A stretch of 64,000 nucleotides of DNA, from the NCBI GenBank assembly GCA_963575745.1, contig CAUYUJ010000280.1:1-64000 (forward strand), written 5' to 3'. Below, one piece after another: positions 6,371 to 18,194 of this stretch. Below the pieces are notes generated by a model. It was given only the letters and a program-made list of their open reading frames with translations, ran no database searches and was not told where the DNA came from. The stretch's first letter is position 1. Each line of letters begins with the position of its first letter. This DNA comes from Prorocentrum cordatum. Taxonomy: Eukaryota. Position numbers and translations under genes: made by a program.

Positions 6371-7301
6371 CACCCCCTCCCAGACTCTTTGATCCGCTTG
6401 ATTTATAACGATTTCTTTAACTATGACATTTCTTCGCTAGGCGTATTTAGCGCTAGCGATAATGACATTGCTCCCATGTAGCACGAACATATCTGTTAGC
6501 TAAACAACAACTTGTCATAACGACAACATAGTTAGCACTAAATATGTTGCGTAAACGAAAATAACGTTAAATCTATAGTTATATAGAATAAGTATGTTGG
6601 CACCAGATATAGATAAGGGTTTGCACGTCGGTGCATCCAAGATTCTTCCCACCGACCCACCGCGCGCCTCTGAATGACCTGTTTGTTTTTGCGTCCAAGG
6701 CGTTGTCCCCGACCCCGCGTGGCAGGACCCCTTTATCCTTATTTTGCGAAAGAGCCCAGCATCGTATCTGTATTTCCAAATAGCCTCGCGGGATGCCATC
6801 TGGGGCCGAAGAAGTTCGTCCATGTTCAGACCCCCCCTCCTCCCCCCATTTTGTTGTACGGGGGGTCTACAACTCTAGTCTAGCCTTTTCCAGGGCCTGT
6901 GTTCGGTGATTTGAATGTATTGGGTTCGGGCGCAGTTTCAGGCGCGTGGTGGCGTAAGTTTTACCGTAATTGGCCCACCCCGATGCTCGGAGCGGTCGTG
7001 TTCCGATCCTCTCCGACCCTGCTCGGTGCGGTCGTATTCCGACCCTCTCCGATGTTGTGCCCCGTAGGAGGAGGAAGAGGAGGATAGGGAGGAGTATACA
7101 GTAGCAGCAGTAGCAGCAGGAGCAGCAACAGGAGCAAACGGATGGGGAAGAGGAGGGGGAGGACGACAACGACGAGAGGGAGGAGGAAGAGGGGGAGGAG
7201 AGGGGAGGGGGAGGAATACGAAGAGGATAACGAGGACGATGAAGAGTAGGAGGAGGAATACGAAGAGGATGATATTTAACGTCCGATCGACAGCAACGGT
7301 A

Positions 7302-7323
7302 CCCATAGCCATTTTGGTTCGAG
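7302..7323 (+). other. Relict dinoflagellate spliced leader upstream of transposon ORF-A
   Basis: CCCATAGCCATTTTGGTTCGAG vs DinoSL DCCGTAGCCATTTTGGCTCAAG, 18/22 match, ending about 50 nt before ATG 7376. Confidence 0.75.
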
Positions 7324-7375
7324 AGATCCGAGCACCTTCGATTCCGACTTGTTTGCAGTGCCAGTTTGGACAGGG

Positions 7376-14642: not shown

Positions 14643-15135
14643 GGGGTCAGATCGGCTTCAGCTGAATCGGCGGCGCGCGCTTCGGGAATTGCGCGGTTTT
14701 CTTGGCGCCATTCGTATCCTCCCCCTCCTCCCCCACAGCATCCCTCTCATCATACTCCTCATCATTATCCTCCTCCGCCTCTTCCTGCTACGCATTGGAT
14801 GCAATGCGATTGCGCATATGTAGTTGAATACCTGTTGGGGCCTCTTGTCAAAACCAATCGTCCCCGACCCAATCTTGGCACCGCGGTTGCGCTGGGCATC
14901 ACCGTTGCCATCAACACCGCATGCTTCGACGTTGCCACCATCATTATCGCAAGCACTACTTGCGTCGCTCACAATCCATACCGCTACCCGGCGCAAATTG
15001 CACGGCCATGGCTCGCCTTCTCGGCAGGGCTGCAGCTCGCCTTCTCGGCAGGGCTGCAACTCGCCCTGGCTCGCCTTTTTGGCAGGGCTTATGCTTGCCT
15101 CGCCCCTCCCCCCTCATCTCATCCGCAGCCGTTTT

Positions 15136-16922
15136 ATGGCTTCGCTATTCGCGCCGCTTTTCGCCCCGCTGCAGGACCACTCATCGAGTAAGCGGGGTGG
15201 TGGATGGCGCCAGCGAAGCCTCGCTGAGGAGACTGCGGCCATCGAAGCGAGAACGCTCAGCCCGCGCCGAGAGACTTGTGAAAGTTGTTTGTTGTATCTC
15301 AAAAATTGGGGCTCTGGCATTGCTTCCGCTCCCCTCACGTGGCTCCACGTGGACACGCTGCTGCGCGATGGCTTCGACCACCCTGGCTTGCGGCGGATGC
15401 ACGCGATCGCCCGCCACGAGGGTGATCAGAATGCGCACGCTGGCTTGATCAAGTTAGTGGGCCGCACTTTGGGATTCGACAAAATGACGCTCGGTGTTCT
15501 GGACAGCTCTGTTTCCCAAGTCATCCCCCCCAGCTAATATGGTCAGTATCCTACACAAGCACGACCGCTACAAATTCCAGCGCGTGTTCGGCGCCACTGC
15601 TGCGATCCGTCGTTTCTGGGAACAATTATTTGCCACGCGGGATGGGCGAGGGTTGCGCTCGCTGCGCCCGCATTTGATGGGCAAAACTCCAGAGGACTTG
15701 AAATGGACCGTCCCGTGCACAATACGCGAAGATGCAGCCCCGCACAGTAAACGGCTCTCAACGTCAGTTGTGTCTTGGTCGTCGGTGCTCGGCCAAGGCA
15801 AGGAGATCGAGTGCAATATTGTCCACCATGCCGAGATCAAGATCAAAGGCCAGGCGATCAATTCTGCCGCCCCTGCGTGGGCGTCACTGTTCACATCGTT
15901 CGATATGTTAGCTCGTGGCCAACACCTGGACGGGGAACCCGCCGCAGAGGACCCAGACGGCACCATTTGGAAGTTCGCGCTTTTGTTCGGCAAGGGCGAC
16001 ATGGGGCAATTGATGAGGTGGGGACACAGGTCATACAATGCCTCTGTTTCGGTGTGTTCGGGGTGCGATTGCGACCGTGACGAAAAGCCATCTACGTCAT
16101 GATGCACCTTGGAGGGCCTCCGTGAACGTCGACAATGCGACATACATTGGCCGAACGAGCAGTGGCCATCCTTTGCGTGATTCAATGTATTTCAACAAGT
16201 ATTTCTTCAGATACGATGTGATGCACGTCATGGATCACCATGGGTTGACGGCTGTTGCTGCGGGAGGTATACTGATGCGTCTCGTACGGTCAGAGCGCCG
16301 CTTGGGGGCCAACCAACTAGAGCGCCTTAGCAACATAAGCAGTTTCATTAAGGTGCATCAGGGCAACCATAACGTGACATCTATAATACCAGAGTTGCGA
16401 CTTAAAGACCTTACCGTGGACGGCTGGGACGAGCTAGGGGGAACCTTAATCAAAGCTGCTAACACGCGTTGTTTGGTGCCTGCATTGGTGGAGCTTTCGA
16501 AACAATATTTTGGCGACCCCTGCGATGGCCTTCATATAGCAATGAGGGGGTTCATCTCGGCAATCAATGAGGTGTACAATGTACTGTACAGCGCCTCTGC
16601 GTTTCTGACATCAGACCAGAAATCTGAATTGGAAGGCGCTGTTCTCAGTATGGGCGTTTTCCACATGCAGTGCCGCCAGTTTTCGGCGCACGCAGGCGTG
16701 AATGCGTTCCCTGTGCGCCCCAAGGCGCACTACGCCCAACACATTCCACAGCAGTGCAAGCTCATTAACAGTCGGTTTCTTCAATGTTATTCAGAGGAGA
16801 GCATGATGGGCGTAGTTGTTCGCATCTACAAACGTACATGCGCGGGCCCATATCACAAGCGCGTTCAGCGCAGCGTCCTTTTCAAGTACCTGAGCTACTG
16901 GTGCGTGGAACTGAGGTTGTAA
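15136..16922 (+). pseudogene. CMC/EnSpm-like DDE transposase with two frameshifts
   Basis: Three overlapping frames join at ~15530 (C7 run) and ~16095. Motifs in order: TIREDAAP (D1), LFGKGD (D2), CSGCDC, YDVMHVMDHHG (DxxH), RPKAHYAQH (KxH), CYSEESMMG (E). This order resembles CACTA/Mirage-type transposases. Confidence 0.75.
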
Positions 16923-18194
16923 AAAATCATCATCATTGTCATCATCATCATCATCATCGTCATCATCATCACCATCATCATCATCATCACAACCCCCTCC
17001 TCCTCCTCCCCCTCCTCCCCCTCGTCCTCCCACGCGTCTTCCTTCCCCTCGTCCTCCTTGTCCTCCCCTCTCTCCTCCTCCGTGTGCGTGCGTGTGTATA
17101 TATACATATGTATTAACTAGAGATATGCATGTTTATATAGAATTGTATATATATATATATATACGGCCATCGTGAGAACGATAACTATAGCGAAAACGTA
17201 CATACGTATAACGTAGTTTTCTTTAGCGCTAGCGAAACATGATCAGCGTCGGAGTACAAACGCTTCGCGCATAACGCCAATTTCGTTAACGTTTCGTTAC
17301 GATTTGGGGCGCTAGTGTAATCTTTATAAATCTAGCTGAATGCAGAGTCTGGGCTAGGCACGCCCACCCAACAGACAAGACCGCGAGGCAGGAATCAGGA
17401 ACCAGACGGCACGAGAGAAGAGGAGAAGGGAACACAGGAAACAGGAGAAGGAGGAGAGGAGAGGAGGAGGAGGAGGAGGAGGAGGAGGAATTCCCAGAAT
17501 TCCTTTTTTAAACAAAAAAAAAAGTGGGACTCCGACTAGGAGATCCCACACATCCCCTGACATCTGGCCGGTACCGCGCCTCCCGGCTTCCCGGGGGGCC
17601 CCCAAGACGCCCAAGGACAGCCCAAGACGACACCAAGGAGCCCCCAGAACGTAACGAACGGCCCAACACGCTCCCGCGCAGCCCGAGACACCCTTCCGAC
17701 GGCTCTCCAGGCCTCCAGGAGGCCTCCAGAACCCCCAGGGGGTCCGGAAGATCCCACACCCCTGAGGGGCCCGGCTAACAAAACCCGCGAGGCACAACCA
17801 AAGAACAGCGCCGAACAGCGCCAAGGAAATGGAAATTCATGGAAATCCAACAATTCCTTCTTTTTTTGTTTCAAGTTTGGCCCCGGTCTATTCTTGCACA
17901 ACAGACCACAATTCAGACCCCCTCACCTCCCAAAGAAAAACCCAGGAAGCCGTTGAGAGCCCCAAATCGTTAAATACCCAAAGGAAATTAATGTTTGTTG
18001 CGTTTCCGCATTTCCCCTTCTATGCGATTCCGAGGCTTGCGCAGGGCCTCCAAGGGAGCCCCTGGACGCAAGAAGCGACCAAAACGAGATTTCATGAGTT
18101 GACTGATCAAGCCTAGCTAGAACTTGAGCGCGCGCGAAGCGCGCGCGATGGTTCTAGTGTATATATATACACACACGTACACAACAATAGGACG

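What the first reader, a model, noticed from the sequence alone, without database searches (positions are those of the whole stretch)
6379..17353. Multigene CACTA-like DNA transposon in which all four ORFs carry relict spliced leaders
Seen: between 30-bp imperfect CCCAG TIRs with a CT TSD lie four co-oriented intronless ORFs. Each is preceded by a simple-sequence spacer and an SL-like motif: A CCCATAGCCATTTTGGTTCGAG (7302, 18/22); B CCAATAGCCGTGTTGGCTCTGG (9293, 15/22); C CCTGCAGCCGTTTTGGCTTCGT (13263, 14/22); transposase TCCGCAGCCGTTTT[AT]GGCT (15122, 16/18 with a 2-nt insertion). Relics B and C are weak alone, but their position at every ORF start is striking. Inference: a class II element assembled from retroposed trans-spliced mRNAs, including its own transposase, or one keeping SL-like motifs as expression/trans-splicing signals for an operon-like cassette. 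ORFs A-C are unrecognised accessory genes.
Basis: partly seen in the sequence, partly recalled or inferred. Interest (0 to 1): 0.8.

Follow-up and report, generated by a model that had tools for sequence, protein, structure and literature searches.

The report
Four-gene dinoflagellate DNA transposon
An 11-kb cut-and-paste transposon in a dinoflagellate genome carries a broken transposase gene and three other genes, each preceded by a worn copy of the short leader that these algae splice onto every mRNA, so either RNA copies helped build the element or it uses the leader remnants to express its genes.

Summary
The observation largely holds. Window 6379-17353 is bounded by a unique 35-bp inverted repeat (28/35 identical; next best match in the window 20/35). 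It has related AT-rich subterminal regions and a CT/CT flank. Three intact + strand ORFs lie inside (A, B, C), plus a fourth gene (T) broken by two +1 frameshifts. T belongs to a large unannotated protein family (733 clusters) with no Pfam or PDB sequence match. The family has invariant D, D, E residues and the C(2)C and H(3)H motifs of the EnSpm/Mirage/Chapaev/Transib/Plavaka ("CMCT") transposases, spaced as in RAG1. It is therefore CACTA-related only in this wide sense; the termini are CCCAG..CTGGG.

Spliced-leader-like motifs sit 9-53 nt upstream of ORFs A, B and C at far above background frequency, and over T's start codon. A's is a clear relict. B's and C's are probable. T's stands out only if its 2-nt insertion is not penalised. 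New here: the C and T leaders are copies of each other, so there are at most three independent relicts.

I could not test whether A-C travel with T: no second copy, empty site or RNA data was reachable. The element lies, in sense orientation, between two halves of a Ski2/Mtr4-like helicase gene. This is a new variant of known kinds, of moderate interest.

The parts
6377..6378 (.). Left flank CT (candidate 2-bp target site duplication)
   Evidence: Read; same dinucleotide at 17354-17355; 1/16 by chance
6379..6413 (+). Left terminal inverted repeat, starts CCCAGACTCT
   Evidence: 28/35 identical to the reverse complement of 17319-17353; next best match in the window 20/35
6414..6640 (.). Left AT-rich subterminal region (60-70% A+T against 27-37% in the left flank) with motifs shared with the right end
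   Evidence: the 14-mer TTTAGCGCTAGCGA occurs twice in the window, once at each end; TCGCTAG occurs 3 times in the window, all subterminal
7302..7323 (+). SL-like motif A (18/21 to the dinoflagellate spliced leader), 53 nt before the ATG of ORF A; internal AG at 7307-7308
   Evidence: only 2 sites in the window within 3 mismatches (this one and the perfect leader at 38310); none in 100 shuffles
7352..7374 (+). Possible second, more decayed SL-like motif, next to the ATG of ORF A and about 30 nt after the first
   Evidence: gapped score 7, a level about 20 other places in the window also reach; weak
7376..8431 (+). ORF A, 351 aa, no known domain; real coding gene
   Evidence: GC3 0.80 against GC2 0.43; homologue P0153 at 40% identity over 275 aligned positions, E 1e-58 pairwise; no Pfam, NCBIfam, PHROGs or PDB match
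8582..9216 (.). Spacer: (ATC)n, then an 11-bp GGCCCCAAGA-type satellite also present outside the element, then (TGA)n
9293..9314 (+). SL-like motif B (15/21), 9 nt before the ATG of ORF B; AG at 9298-9299
   Evidence: gapped score 9; only 4 background sites reach 9 in about 120 kb of both strands
9323..9925 (+). ORF B, 200 aa; coding status doubtful
   Evidence: No codon periodicity (GC1/2/3 = 0.63/0.59/0.62); an in-frame 60-bp tandem duplication at 9701-9833; no family or PDB match
10506..13180 (.). Nested repeat unit: 21-bp AAGATATCTTAA repeats on both sides of a leader (10565-10620), (TCTCC)n and 25.8 copies of a 90-bp satellite (10744-13058)
   Evidence: the same leader plus satellite recurs at 31265-32835 (about 70% identity), so it is a separate dispersed repeat inside the element
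13263..13284 (+). SL-like motif C (14/21), preceded by a CT-rich tract, 42 nt before the ATG of ORF C; AG at 13268-13269
   Evidence: paralogous to the T leader
13326..14642 (+). ORF C, 438 aa, no known domain; real coding gene
   Evidence: GC3 0.81 against GC2 0.46; homologue P0154 at 42% identity over 315 aa, E 2e-77 pairwise
15122..15143 (+). SL-like motif T (16/18 with a 2-nt insertion that forms the start codon at 15136), preceded by a CT-rich tract; AG at 15127-15128
   Evidence: 15/17 if one insertion is free, and no background site reaches 15; below 7 when gaps are penalised; its best non-self match in the window is the C leader
15136..16922 (+). Transposase-family gene T, about 595 codons in three frames; +1 frameshifts at the C7 run near 15525-15531 and near 16086-16090. 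Candidate catalytic D 15731, D 15998, E 16797; C(2)C 16055/16064; H(3)H 16728/16740
16926..17081 (.). (ATC)n and CT-rich tract; the CT tract is the reverse complement of the purine-rich tract at 7063-7273
17082..17318 (.). Right AT-rich subterminal region
17319..17353 (-). Right terminal inverted repeat
17354..17355 (.). Right flank CT
   Evidence: Read

Best explanation
Window 6379-17353 is one defective copy of a large cut-and-paste DNA transposon in a dinoflagellate nuclear genome. Its transposase (gene T) belongs to an undescribed, widespread lineage of the CMCT group of DDE transposases (EnSpm/CACTA, Mirage, Chapaev, Transib/RAG1, Plavaka). In an intact copy the enzyme would recognise the CCCAG..CTGGG inverted repeats and the related AT-rich subterminal regions, then excise and reinsert the element with a 2-bp duplication. 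In this copy T carries two frameshifts, so it could move only with help from another copy.

The element lies in sense orientation in the roughly 19-kb gap between two halves of a Ski2/Mtr4-like helicase gene.

The genes inside carry remnants of the 22-nt dinoflagellate spliced leader just upstream of their start codons. This is the known signature of mRNA recycling: a trans-spliced mRNA is reverse-transcribed and its cDNA is integrated or recombined back into DNA. There are at most three independent events (A, B, and one shared by C and T), because the leader in front of ORF C is a duplicate of T's 5' end, including T's first seven or so codons.

Inferred, not shown: the conserved AG-CC-TTTTGG core of these remnants now serves as the trans-splice acceptor and/or the TTTT promoter-like signal. 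This would let each ORF be matured separately from a long transcript. ORFs A and C, and doubtfully B, would be cargo or accessory genes of the element.
For: Boundaries:
- The TIR pair is unique: 28/35 identical, next best 20/35, and z is about 6 against shuffles.
- Both ends turn AT-rich exactly at the TIRs and share rare words found nowhere else in the window.
- CT lies on both flanks.

Transposase:
- T matches 609-aa homologues end to end.
- The family has 733 clusters at E<=1e-3 and 79 at E<=1e-30.
- In 32 members of 450 aa or more: D211 32/32, D300 32/32, C318 and C321 32/32, H545 30/32, H549 28/32, E568 29/32.
- The layout is D-89-D-18-C(2)C-223-H(3)H-19-E. Mouse RAG1 has D600-108-D708-19-C727(2)C730-206-H937(4)H942-20-E962 (passage of PMC4914335).
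- The nearest named clusters by language-model features are Plavaka (0.90 and 0.91; 17 of 30 named hits), RAG1 and Transposase_21. These are leads only.
- All these residues are kept in the window's copy.

SL motifs:
- Core motif, 4 hits against 0.33 expected, with 3 in front of ORFs A-C.
- A is 18/21, and no shuffle reaches that.
- B and C have gapped score 9, a level reached by 4 background sites in about 120 kb. That gives about 0.002 for a given 60-nt upstream stretch.
- The 12-base core AGCCATTTTGGC is kept at 43 of 48 positions across the four motifs; the outer bases at 19 of 36 (counted).
- A perfect leader abutting an ATG at 38310 shows that such recycling happens in this genome.
- Relict leaders stand upstream of more than 20% of Symbiodinium genes, with the TTT(T/G) part best conserved (passages of PMC5585692 and PMC6050394).

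C/T leader duplication:
- Score 40 against shuffle mean 18.6, sd 2.9, max 30.
- A 33-nt T leader finds the C leader as its only outlier in the window: 33 against next best 24, mean 11.0, sd 2.8.

A and C are real genes.

Sense orientation inside the helicase gap.
Against: - Only this one copy was seen. No second copy, empty site or relative with flanks could be obtained, so co-mobilisation of A-C with T is untested and the 2-bp duplication rests on one insertion.
- T has no match to Pfam Plavaka, Transposase_21 or any other family. This covers 6 window pieces at E<=1, 2 homologues at E<=10 and 24 family members at E<=1.
- A family profile finds no transposase in the PDB (6 hits, E 0.17-0.57, all unrelated).
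- No fold was obtained.
- The termini are not the 5'-CA..TG-3' usual in CMCT.
- Motifs B, C and T fail the published exact 9-mer criterion; their longest exact runs are 7, 8 and 4.
- T's motif scores below 7 when gaps are penalised. The scheme under which it stands out was chosen after seeing it.
- GC3 of A and C (0.80, 0.81) differs from T (0.60-0.69) and B (0.62). This suggests different histories.
- The interior holds satellites shared with the rest of the genome, so it has been remodelled.
- No poly(A) remnant or flanking direct repeat marks any SL-to-3'UTR unit above chance.
- Co-orientation of the ORFs is also the rule for the neighbouring + strand genes, so it is not evidence for an operon-like cassette.
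Confidence: 0.5

Rival explanations
1. The transposon is real but old and dead. ORFs A, B and C are ordinary dinoflagellate retrogenes that landed inside it, or inside the helicase intron, one after another. They are nested insertions, not genes of the element.
For: - Relict leaders are common in these genomes: more than 20% of genes (PMC5585692 passages).
- A full leader fused to an ORF lies 21 kb away.
- The decay of the motifs differs (3, 6 and 7 mismatches of 21), as expected for events at different times.
- GC3 of A and C is host-like (0.80 and 0.81 against 0.69-0.75 for the helicase ORFs) and unlike T.
- The interior has clearly accepted other insertions, namely the satellites.
Against: - The 5' leader of ORF C is a copy of T's own 5' end, including its first codons. 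That is not expected for an mRNA retroposed from an unrelated locus.
- No poly(A) tract or flanking duplication bounds any unit.
- Three or four of the 4-5 SL-like sites of a 64-kb window fall in an element that makes up 17% of it.
Confidence: 0.25
2. The SL-like motifs are not decayed relicts of retroposition. They are copies of one functional leader cassette (pyrimidine tract, AG, CC-TTTTGG) that the element duplicated in front of each gene as a trans-splicing or promoter signal. Their likeness to the leader is kept by selection or is convergent.
For: - C and T share one leader by duplication.
- Derived states are shared: position 9 is A>G in B, C and T; position 4 is T>C and positions 18-20 are TCG in C and T; position 3 is G>A in A and B.
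- The core is far better kept than the outer bases: 43/48 against 19/36.
- CT-rich tracts precede the AG in B, C and T.
- Published work proposes TTT(T/G) of the leader as a promoter-like element (PMC6050394 passage).
Against: - The A-B, A-C, A-T, B-C and B-T upstream regions share nothing beyond the motif itself; all five alignments fall within the shuffle range.
- A's motif is close to the canonical leader over its whole length, including the 3' end (18/21). That fits a young true relict.
- No expression data.
Confidence: 0.15
3. There is no transposon. The inverted repeat is fortuitous, and the region is a run of retrogenes in a repeat-rich intron. One of them is a processed pseudogene of a transposase mRNA.
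For: - Single copy only, and the TSD is just 2 bp.
- T is frameshifted and has an SL-like 5' end, as a processed pseudogene would.
- The window is full of repeats, with 7765 inverted pairs of 25 nt or more, mostly microsatellites.
Against: - The TIR match (28/35) is an isolated outlier; the next best is 20/35.
- The arms sit exactly where the composition switches to AT-rich at both ends.
- The two subterminal regions share 14-mer and 10-mer words found nowhere else in the window.
- A transposase-family gene lies 430 bp inside one end.
Confidence: 0.1

Closest known systems
Plavaka and other CMCT-clade DNA transposons (EnSpm/CACTA, Mirage, Chapaev, Transib, ESTA, Lanisha), as described by Kojima 2025 (PMC12730594; passages read)
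   Same: [quoted passage not shown]
- Short TSD: 2 bp here; 2-5 bp in the clade, and 2 bp in PlavakaA.
- TIRs.
- Several fungal members carry extra genes beside the transposase (a TET/JBP gene, sometimes a third protein).
- Plavaka clusters are the nearest named neighbours by language-model features.
   Different: - No detectable sequence match to the Pfam Plavaka or Transposase_21 models.
- Termini are CCCAG..CTGGG, not CA..TG, TGT..ACA or CATCA..TGATG.
- The host is a dinoflagellate.
- Each gene has a spliced-leader-like leader.
- The cargo ORFs have no known domain.
Maize En/Spm (CACTA) with TnpA and TnpD and subterminal repeats (recalled, not from a call)
   Same: A large element with short TIRs, repeat-bearing subterminal regions and more than one protein.
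   Different: - En/Spm makes its proteins from one transcript by alternative splicing. Here there are separate intronless ORFs.
- The CACTA termini and 3-bp TSD are absent here.
Relict-DinoSL retrogenes (Slamovits and Keeling 2008, as cited in PMC6050394; Song et al. 2017, PMC5585692; passages read)
   Same: - An SL-like sequence on the coding strand 9-53 nt upstream of the ATG.
- The TTTTGG part is the best conserved.
- The ORFs are intronless.
- A possible second, older relict about 30 nt downstream of the first in front of ORF A; 30 bp is the spacing the paper reports as most frequent.
   Different: - Here the genes lie inside a TIR-bounded class II element.
- Two of the leaders (C, T) arose by internal duplication.
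- Only A passes the paper's exact 9-mer rule.
DinoSL upstream of virus-derived genes in Symbiodiniaceae, and in a dinoflagellate RNA virus genome (PMC9651163; passages read)
   Same: A foreign or selfish genetic element whose genes carry the host leader. It has been proposed to give native-looking expression and a TTTT promoter-like motif.
   Different: Those are viral insertions near retroelements, not a DNA transposon. No relative of A, B, C or T was confirmed as a locus in the viral contig collection.
Gene-capturing DNA transposons (Pack-MULEs, plant CACTA captures) (recalled, not from a call)
   Same: A TIR element carrying host-like coding sequence between its ends. A and C have host-like codon usage.
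   Different: Those captures are usually fragments acquired at the DNA level. Here the ORFs are complete and carry an mRNA-derived 5' tag.

Membership tests
CMCT clade of DDE transposases (EnSpm/Mirage/Chapaev/Transib/Plavaka) | Three conserved acidic residues (DDE) | tested here: met
   D211 32/32, D300 32/32, E568 29/32 (2 gaps, 1 G) in 32 family members of 450 aa or more. All are present in the window's copy. Their catalytic role is inferred from position only.
CMCT clade of DDE transposases (EnSpm/Mirage/Chapaev/Transib/Plavaka) | [quoted passage not shown] | tested here: met
   C318 and C321 are 32/32; H545 is 30/32 and H549 28/32. They lie 18 residues after D300 and 19 residues before E568. 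The spacing is close to RAG1 C727/C730 and H937/H942.
CMCT clade of DDE transposases (EnSpm/Mirage/Chapaev/Transib/Plavaka) | TSD of 2-5 bp | tested here: inconclusive
   CT/CT at the single insertion; 1/16 by chance; no second copy to confirm.
CMCT clade of DDE transposases (EnSpm/Mirage/Chapaev/Transib/Plavaka) | Termini 5'-CA..TG-3' ('in most cases') | tested here: not met
   Termini are CCCAG..CTGGG.
CMCT clade of DDE transposases (EnSpm/Mirage/Chapaev/Transib/Plavaka) | Detectable sequence similarity to a member family (Pfam PF18759 Plavaka, PF02992 Transposase_21, RAG1 models) | tested here: not met
   None of these families among the matches listed. PDB profile search: no RAG1 or Transib hit at E<=10. 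Only language-model neighbours.
CMCT clade of DDE transposases (EnSpm/Mirage/Chapaev/Transib/Plavaka) | RNase H-like catalytic fold | not tested
CACTA/EnSpm proper | CACTA (CAC..GTG) termini and 3-bp TSD | tested here: not met
   CCCAG termini and a 2-bp flank repeat.
CACTA/EnSpm proper | Repeat-bearing subterminal regions | tested here: met
   AT-rich regions of about 230-260 bp at both ends share TTTAGCGCTAGCGA, CTATAGTTAT, TTATATAGAAT and TCGCTAG.
Relict-DinoSL retrogene | DinoSL or a relict upstream of the ORF on the same strand (published rule: an exact 9-mer within 500 bp) | tested here: inconclusive
   A meets the rule (exact 12-mer, 18/21). B (longest run 7, 15/21), C (8, 14/21) and T (4) do not. 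All the same, B and C are rare-quality matches at the expected place.
Relict-DinoSL retrogene | Marks of retroposition at the 3' end (poly(A) remnant, flanking duplication) | tested here: not met
   Only A5 runs after A and T. No shared word between the 5' and 3' flanks beyond what 62-197 of 200 shuffles give.
Relict-DinoSL retrogene | The leader is actually added to, or was present on, the mRNA | not testable with these tools
   Needs RNA data for this organism.

The most novel reading that the evidence does not exclude
A cut-and-paste transposon has adapted to the dinoflagellate mode of gene expression. It carries no promoters of its own. Instead it places a leader-derived trans-splice acceptor cassette, which it can duplicate internally (as in front of ORF C), ahead of each gene. 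A multi-gene cargo is then cut out of read-through transcripts of the host gene in whose intron it sits in sense orientation. This would be an operon-like selfish element built partly from its own recycled cDNAs.
Probability: 0.15. Interest if true: 0.75.

Novelty: new variant of a known kind. Interest (0 to 1): 0.5.

Why it matters
Three points.

First, the T protein family is large (733 clusters at 50% identity) and has no Pfam, NCBIfam or PDB sequence match, yet it shows the full CMCT/RAG1-type motif layout. It may be an undescribed lineage of the transposase group from which RAG1 arose, apparently abundant in environmental assemblies.

Second, very little is in print on how DNA transposons are expressed in dinoflagellates, where every mRNA is trans-spliced. 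My searches found relict leaders on host retrogenes and viral insertions, but no DNA transposon with them. This element gives four exact, testable acceptor positions.

Third, a leader-tagged transposase gene inside TIRs would be a direct trace of class I machinery rewriting a class II element.

All of this rests on one defective copy.

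Tried and rejected
- Whole-genome search: no genome is held for this window.
- Other copies and empty site: one DNA run (X1) holds 37% of the sampled words of 13200-17500. Two further runs of the same study hold next to none.
  - Laid at 85% likeness, X1 contigs identical to the window cover pieces of the interior: records 1-7 listed, 0 differences. Among them, 15759-16145 bridges the second frameshift.
  - No listed joint links 6378 to 17354, and no listed piece spans the element.
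  - Depth there is not a copy number, and X1 may be the assembly's own sample. This says nothing firm about copy number or mobility.
- No RNA holder listed.
- Relatives with flanks:
  - JGI metagenomes gave 3 short contigs (1.0-1.7 kb) with T-family fragments only. The first attempt, with the wide alignment, failed for lack of conserved stretches.
  - Viral contigs: no locus for T, C or A. For B, one stretch passed tblastn but no locus was returned.
  - Prokaryotic genome contigs: none.
- Cluster look-up of 8 homologues: all unnamed or 'hypothetical', on 1-4 kb environmental contigs.
- Domain searches:
  - Pfam, NCBIfam, PHROGs and PDB found nothing meaningful for A, B, C, P0153 or P0154. The only hit was A to Neisseria_TspB at E 0.13, below its cutoff.
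  - Pfam found no transposase family for T. The only listed hits are unrelated families below their cutoffs.
  - PDB profile of the T family: 6 unrelated weak hits.
- Rfam: no hit. tRNA scan: none.
- The bacterial promoter/terminator scan was at shuffle level and is irrelevant here.
- Retroposition marks around each gene unit: none above chance.
- Missing middle of the helicase gene: 28 ORFs in the gap were scanned, 0 Pfam families.
- Reverse transcriptase next to the perfect leader at 38310: none found in the 6 ORFs scanned for it.
- Earlier findings of this scan: nothing on this genome or on a like sequence.
- Rejected readings:
  - Introns in T: homologue residues are contiguous across both joints.
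  - An SL RNA gene at 38310: the leader is followed by ATG and an ORF, not by a splice donor.

Full report
**What the window is.** A perfect 21-nt dinoflagellate spliced leader (DinoSL without its degenerate first base) stands at 38310-38330 and is followed directly by ATG and a long ORF. Together with 55-70% G+C, mostly + strand ORFs and very many simple repeats (110 TRF rows), this marks the window as dinoflagellate nuclear DNA in which processed mRNAs have been copied back into the genome. No whole genome is held for it.

**The element's ends.** The first 35 bases from 6379 and the reverse complement of the last 35 up to 17353 agree at 28 of 35 positions, the first ten without a mismatch.
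- The local alignment scores 35 against a mean of 18.9 (sd 2.5, max 29) for 200 shuffles.
- Neither arm has any other match above 20/35 on either strand of the window.
- A degenerate pattern of the shared positions hits only these two sites.
- At both arms the composition switches from 27-43% A+T outside to 52-70% inside for about 230-260 bp.
- These two subterminal regions share words that occur nowhere else in the window: the 14-mer TTTAGCGCTAGCGA (two copies, one per end), TCGCTAG (three copies, all subterminal), CTATAGTTAT and TTATATAGAAT.
- CT lies on both flanks, which alone is weak (1/16).

I take the boundaries as real.

**The genes.** ORF A (7376-8431), ORF B (9323-9925) and ORF C (13326-14642) are intact.
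- A and C show strong codon periodicity (GC3 0.80 and 0.81 against GC2 0.43 and 0.46).
- Each has one homologue in the 5.8-billion-cluster collection: P0153 at 40% identity (E 1e-47) and P0154 at 42% (E 4e-65). They are real protein genes.
- No library gives either a function.
- B has no periodicity (0.63/0.59/0.62), an in-frame 60-bp duplication and no match anywhere. Its coding status is doubtful, and I had no search left to look for relatives.

**The fourth gene, T, is not one ORF.** The 609-aa homologues P0001 and P0002 align to it without gaps at the joints, but in three successive frames: residues 7-144 at 15136-15531, 144-329 at 15530-16090 and 331-602 at 16086-16898.
- That means two +1 frameshifts, not introns.
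- The first lies in a run of seven C, a place where assemblies also err.
- The second is also present in a contig of run X1 that bridges it, though that run may be the assembly's own source.

**Is T a transposase?** Sequence libraries say nothing.
- Pfam lists only unrelated, sub-cutoff hits and no transposase family, for six window pieces, two homologues and 24 family members.
- A family profile finds only six unrelated weak hits in the PDB.
- The family itself is large: 733 clusters at E<=1e-3, 353 at 1e-10 and 79 at 1e-30, typically 570-620 aa.
- Conservation in 32 members of 450 aa or more: D211 32/32, D300 32/32, C318 32/32, C321 32/32, H378 32/32, H545 30/32, H549 28/32, E568 29/32.
- The layout is D-89-D-18-C(2)C-223-H(3)H-19-E.
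[quoted passage not shown] That is the 'CMCT' clade, with 2-5 bp TSDs.
- Mouse RAG1 has D600, D708 and E962, with zinc ligands C727/C730 and H937/H942 (PMC4914335, passage read). That is D-108-D-19-C(2)C-206-H(4)H-20-E, a very similar spacing.
- By language-model features, the nearest named clusters to two members only 30% identical to each other are Plavaka (0.90 and 0.91; 17 of 30 named hits), then RAG1 and Transposase_21. The tool rates such scores as leads only.
- The window's copy keeps all these residues.

I conclude, at about 0.8, that T is a CMCT-type DDE transposase of an undescribed lineage. It is 'CACTA-like' only in this wide sense. The termini (CCCAG..CTGGG) and the 2-bp flank repeat are not those of CACTA proper, and a fold could not be obtained.

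*Against chance:*
- The 21-mer with up to three mismatches occurs twice in the window: A's motif and the perfect leader. It occurs in none of 100 shuffles.
- The core AGCCNTTTTGGCT with at most one mismatch occurs four times, all on the + strand. Three are in front of ORFs A, B and C. Expected 0.33, and 0 of 100 shuffles reached four.
- Ungapped, outside the two satellite arrays, only one other site reaches 15/21 (61691, minus strand) and five reach 14 or more.
- With gaps penalised, A scores 15 and B and C score 9. Four other sites reach 9 in about 120 kb of both strands. The chance of one such site in a given 60-nt stretch before a start codon is therefore about 0.002.
- T's motif scores below 7 in that scheme. 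It stands out only if its 2-nt insertion is free: 15/17, no background site at 15, one at 14. I chose that scheme after seeing the motif.
- By the published rule of an exact 9-mer (PMC5585692), only A qualifies.

*Pattern of conservation:* across the four motifs the core AGCCATTTTGGC is kept at 43 of 48 positions and the outer bases at 19 of 36 (counted). This is the pattern reported for relicts, where the TTT(T/G) part is best conserved (PMC6050394).

**A new point: the leaders of C and T are copies of each other.**
- Their upstream regions align with score 40 against shuffles of 18.6 +/- 2.9 (max 30). The other five pairs of upstream regions stay within the shuffle range.
- A 33-nt stretch of T's leader without the CT-rich tract finds C's leader as the only outlier among all 70-nt tiles of the window: 33 against a next best of 24, mean 11.0, sd 2.8.
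- The shared stretch runs past the SL-like part into T's first seven or so codons.
- T's N-terminus fits the family consensus M-x3-L-x2-P...GGWRQR. T's version is therefore the older one, and C's 5' UTR is a duplicate in which the start codon was lost.

Two consequences follow. There are at most three independent SL-like leaders (A, B, C/T). And gene C is tied to the element's own sequence, which an mRNA retroposed from an unrelated locus would not be.

**Context.** ORF 1222-2091 matches yeast Mtr4 (2xgj_A) residues 86-269. ORF 21049-22386 matches residues 399-528 of the same chain and carries a DSHCT domain.
- The element therefore lies, in sense orientation, in a gap of about 19 kb between two halves of one Ski2/Mtr4-like helicase gene.
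- About 100-130 residues of the middle were not found, so the gap may be an intron or the gene may be broken.
- The interior of the element has taken up repeats that also occur outside it. One is an 11-bp satellite. The other is a unit of leader plus 90-bp satellite (25.8 copies) that recurs at 31265-32835 and sits here between 21-bp AAGATATCTTAA repeats.
- Co-orientation and simple-sequence spacers are general features of this window, not of the element.

**What could not be tested.** No second copy, empty site or relative with flanking DNA was reachable.
- None of the SL-to-3'UTR units shows a poly(A) remnant or a flanking duplication above chance.
- The codon usage of A and C differs from that of T.
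- Both points leave room for the rival that A-C are later retrogene insertions.

**Verdict.** This is a real, defective, roughly 11-kb DNA transposon of the wide EnSpm/Transib/Plavaka group, in a dinoflagellate. Its genes carry spliced-leader remnants: one clear, two probable, one shared by duplication.
- The most likely history is recycling of trans-spliced mRNAs into the element, plus internal duplication of a leader.
- The most likely present role of the remnants is as trans-splice acceptor or TTTT signal.
- The first is inferred from a well-documented process in these genomes. The second is untested.

In four literature searches I found no description of a DNA transposon with relict leaders, or of CMC-type elements in dinoflagellates. 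Repbase and subscription journals were not searchable. I rate it a new variant of known kinds, with interest 0.5.

Noticed in passing
window 38310-41664: A perfect 21/21 spliced leader directly abuts the ATG of ORF 38331-39857. The next ORF (39553-41664) has a sub-threshold Exo_endo_phos match (E 1.6e-4, 21.9 bits against a cutoff of 24.5). This is a retro-copied gene or retroelement with an undecayed leader. No reverse transcriptase domain was found in the neighbouring ORFs.
   Followed up: partly
window 1222-2091 and 21049-22386: Two + strand ORFs are the N-terminal (DEAD) and C-terminal (Helicase_C + DSHCT) parts of one Ski2/Mtr4-like helicase. They are about 19 kb apart, and that gap holds the element. 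About 100-130 residues of the middle were not located.
   Followed up: partly
window 10506-13180 and 31265-32835: A dispersed unit recurs twice in the window at about 70% identity. It consists of a 55-nt leader, a CT-rich stretch ((TCTCC)n in the copy inside the element) and a 90-bp satellite. Inside the element it sits between 21-bp AAGATATCTTAA repeats, as if inserted into that small array.
   Followed up: partly
window 7352-7374: A second, much weaker SL-like stretch lies right before the ATG of ORF A, about 30 nt after the first motif. 30 bp is the spacing Song et al. 2017 report as most frequent between successive relicts. Its score is at a level that about 20 other places in the window also reach.
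   Followed up: partly
window 15011-15085: A 24-bp tandem repeat (2.3 copies) lies just upstream of T's leader. Its units (CGCCTTCTCGGCAGGGCT) and the following GCCTTTTTGGCA resemble the leader core faintly: 13/17 with an insertion.
   Followed up: no
window 24166-27525: A 1120-aa + strand ORF with AAA_11/AAA_12 (Upf1-like superfamily 1 helicase) domains, E 1e-38 to 7e-47.
   Followed up: no
window 5688-6367: A 103-bp tandem repeat (6.6 copies, 90% matches) ends 11 nt before the element's left end. Contigs matching it in run X1 are very numerous.
   Followed up: no
window 8582-8638, 9152-9216, 16926-16989: (ATC)n tracts follow ORF A and gene T right after short A-runs. In the A-B spacer, an (ATC)n and its complement (TGA)n bracket the 11-bp satellite as an inverted pair.
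   Followed up: no
L001 1-1749: A metagenome contig encodes a T-family member in an open frame of 503 codons. The N-terminal part of that frame does not look like the family, which suggests another frame-broken or truncated copy.
   Followed up: no
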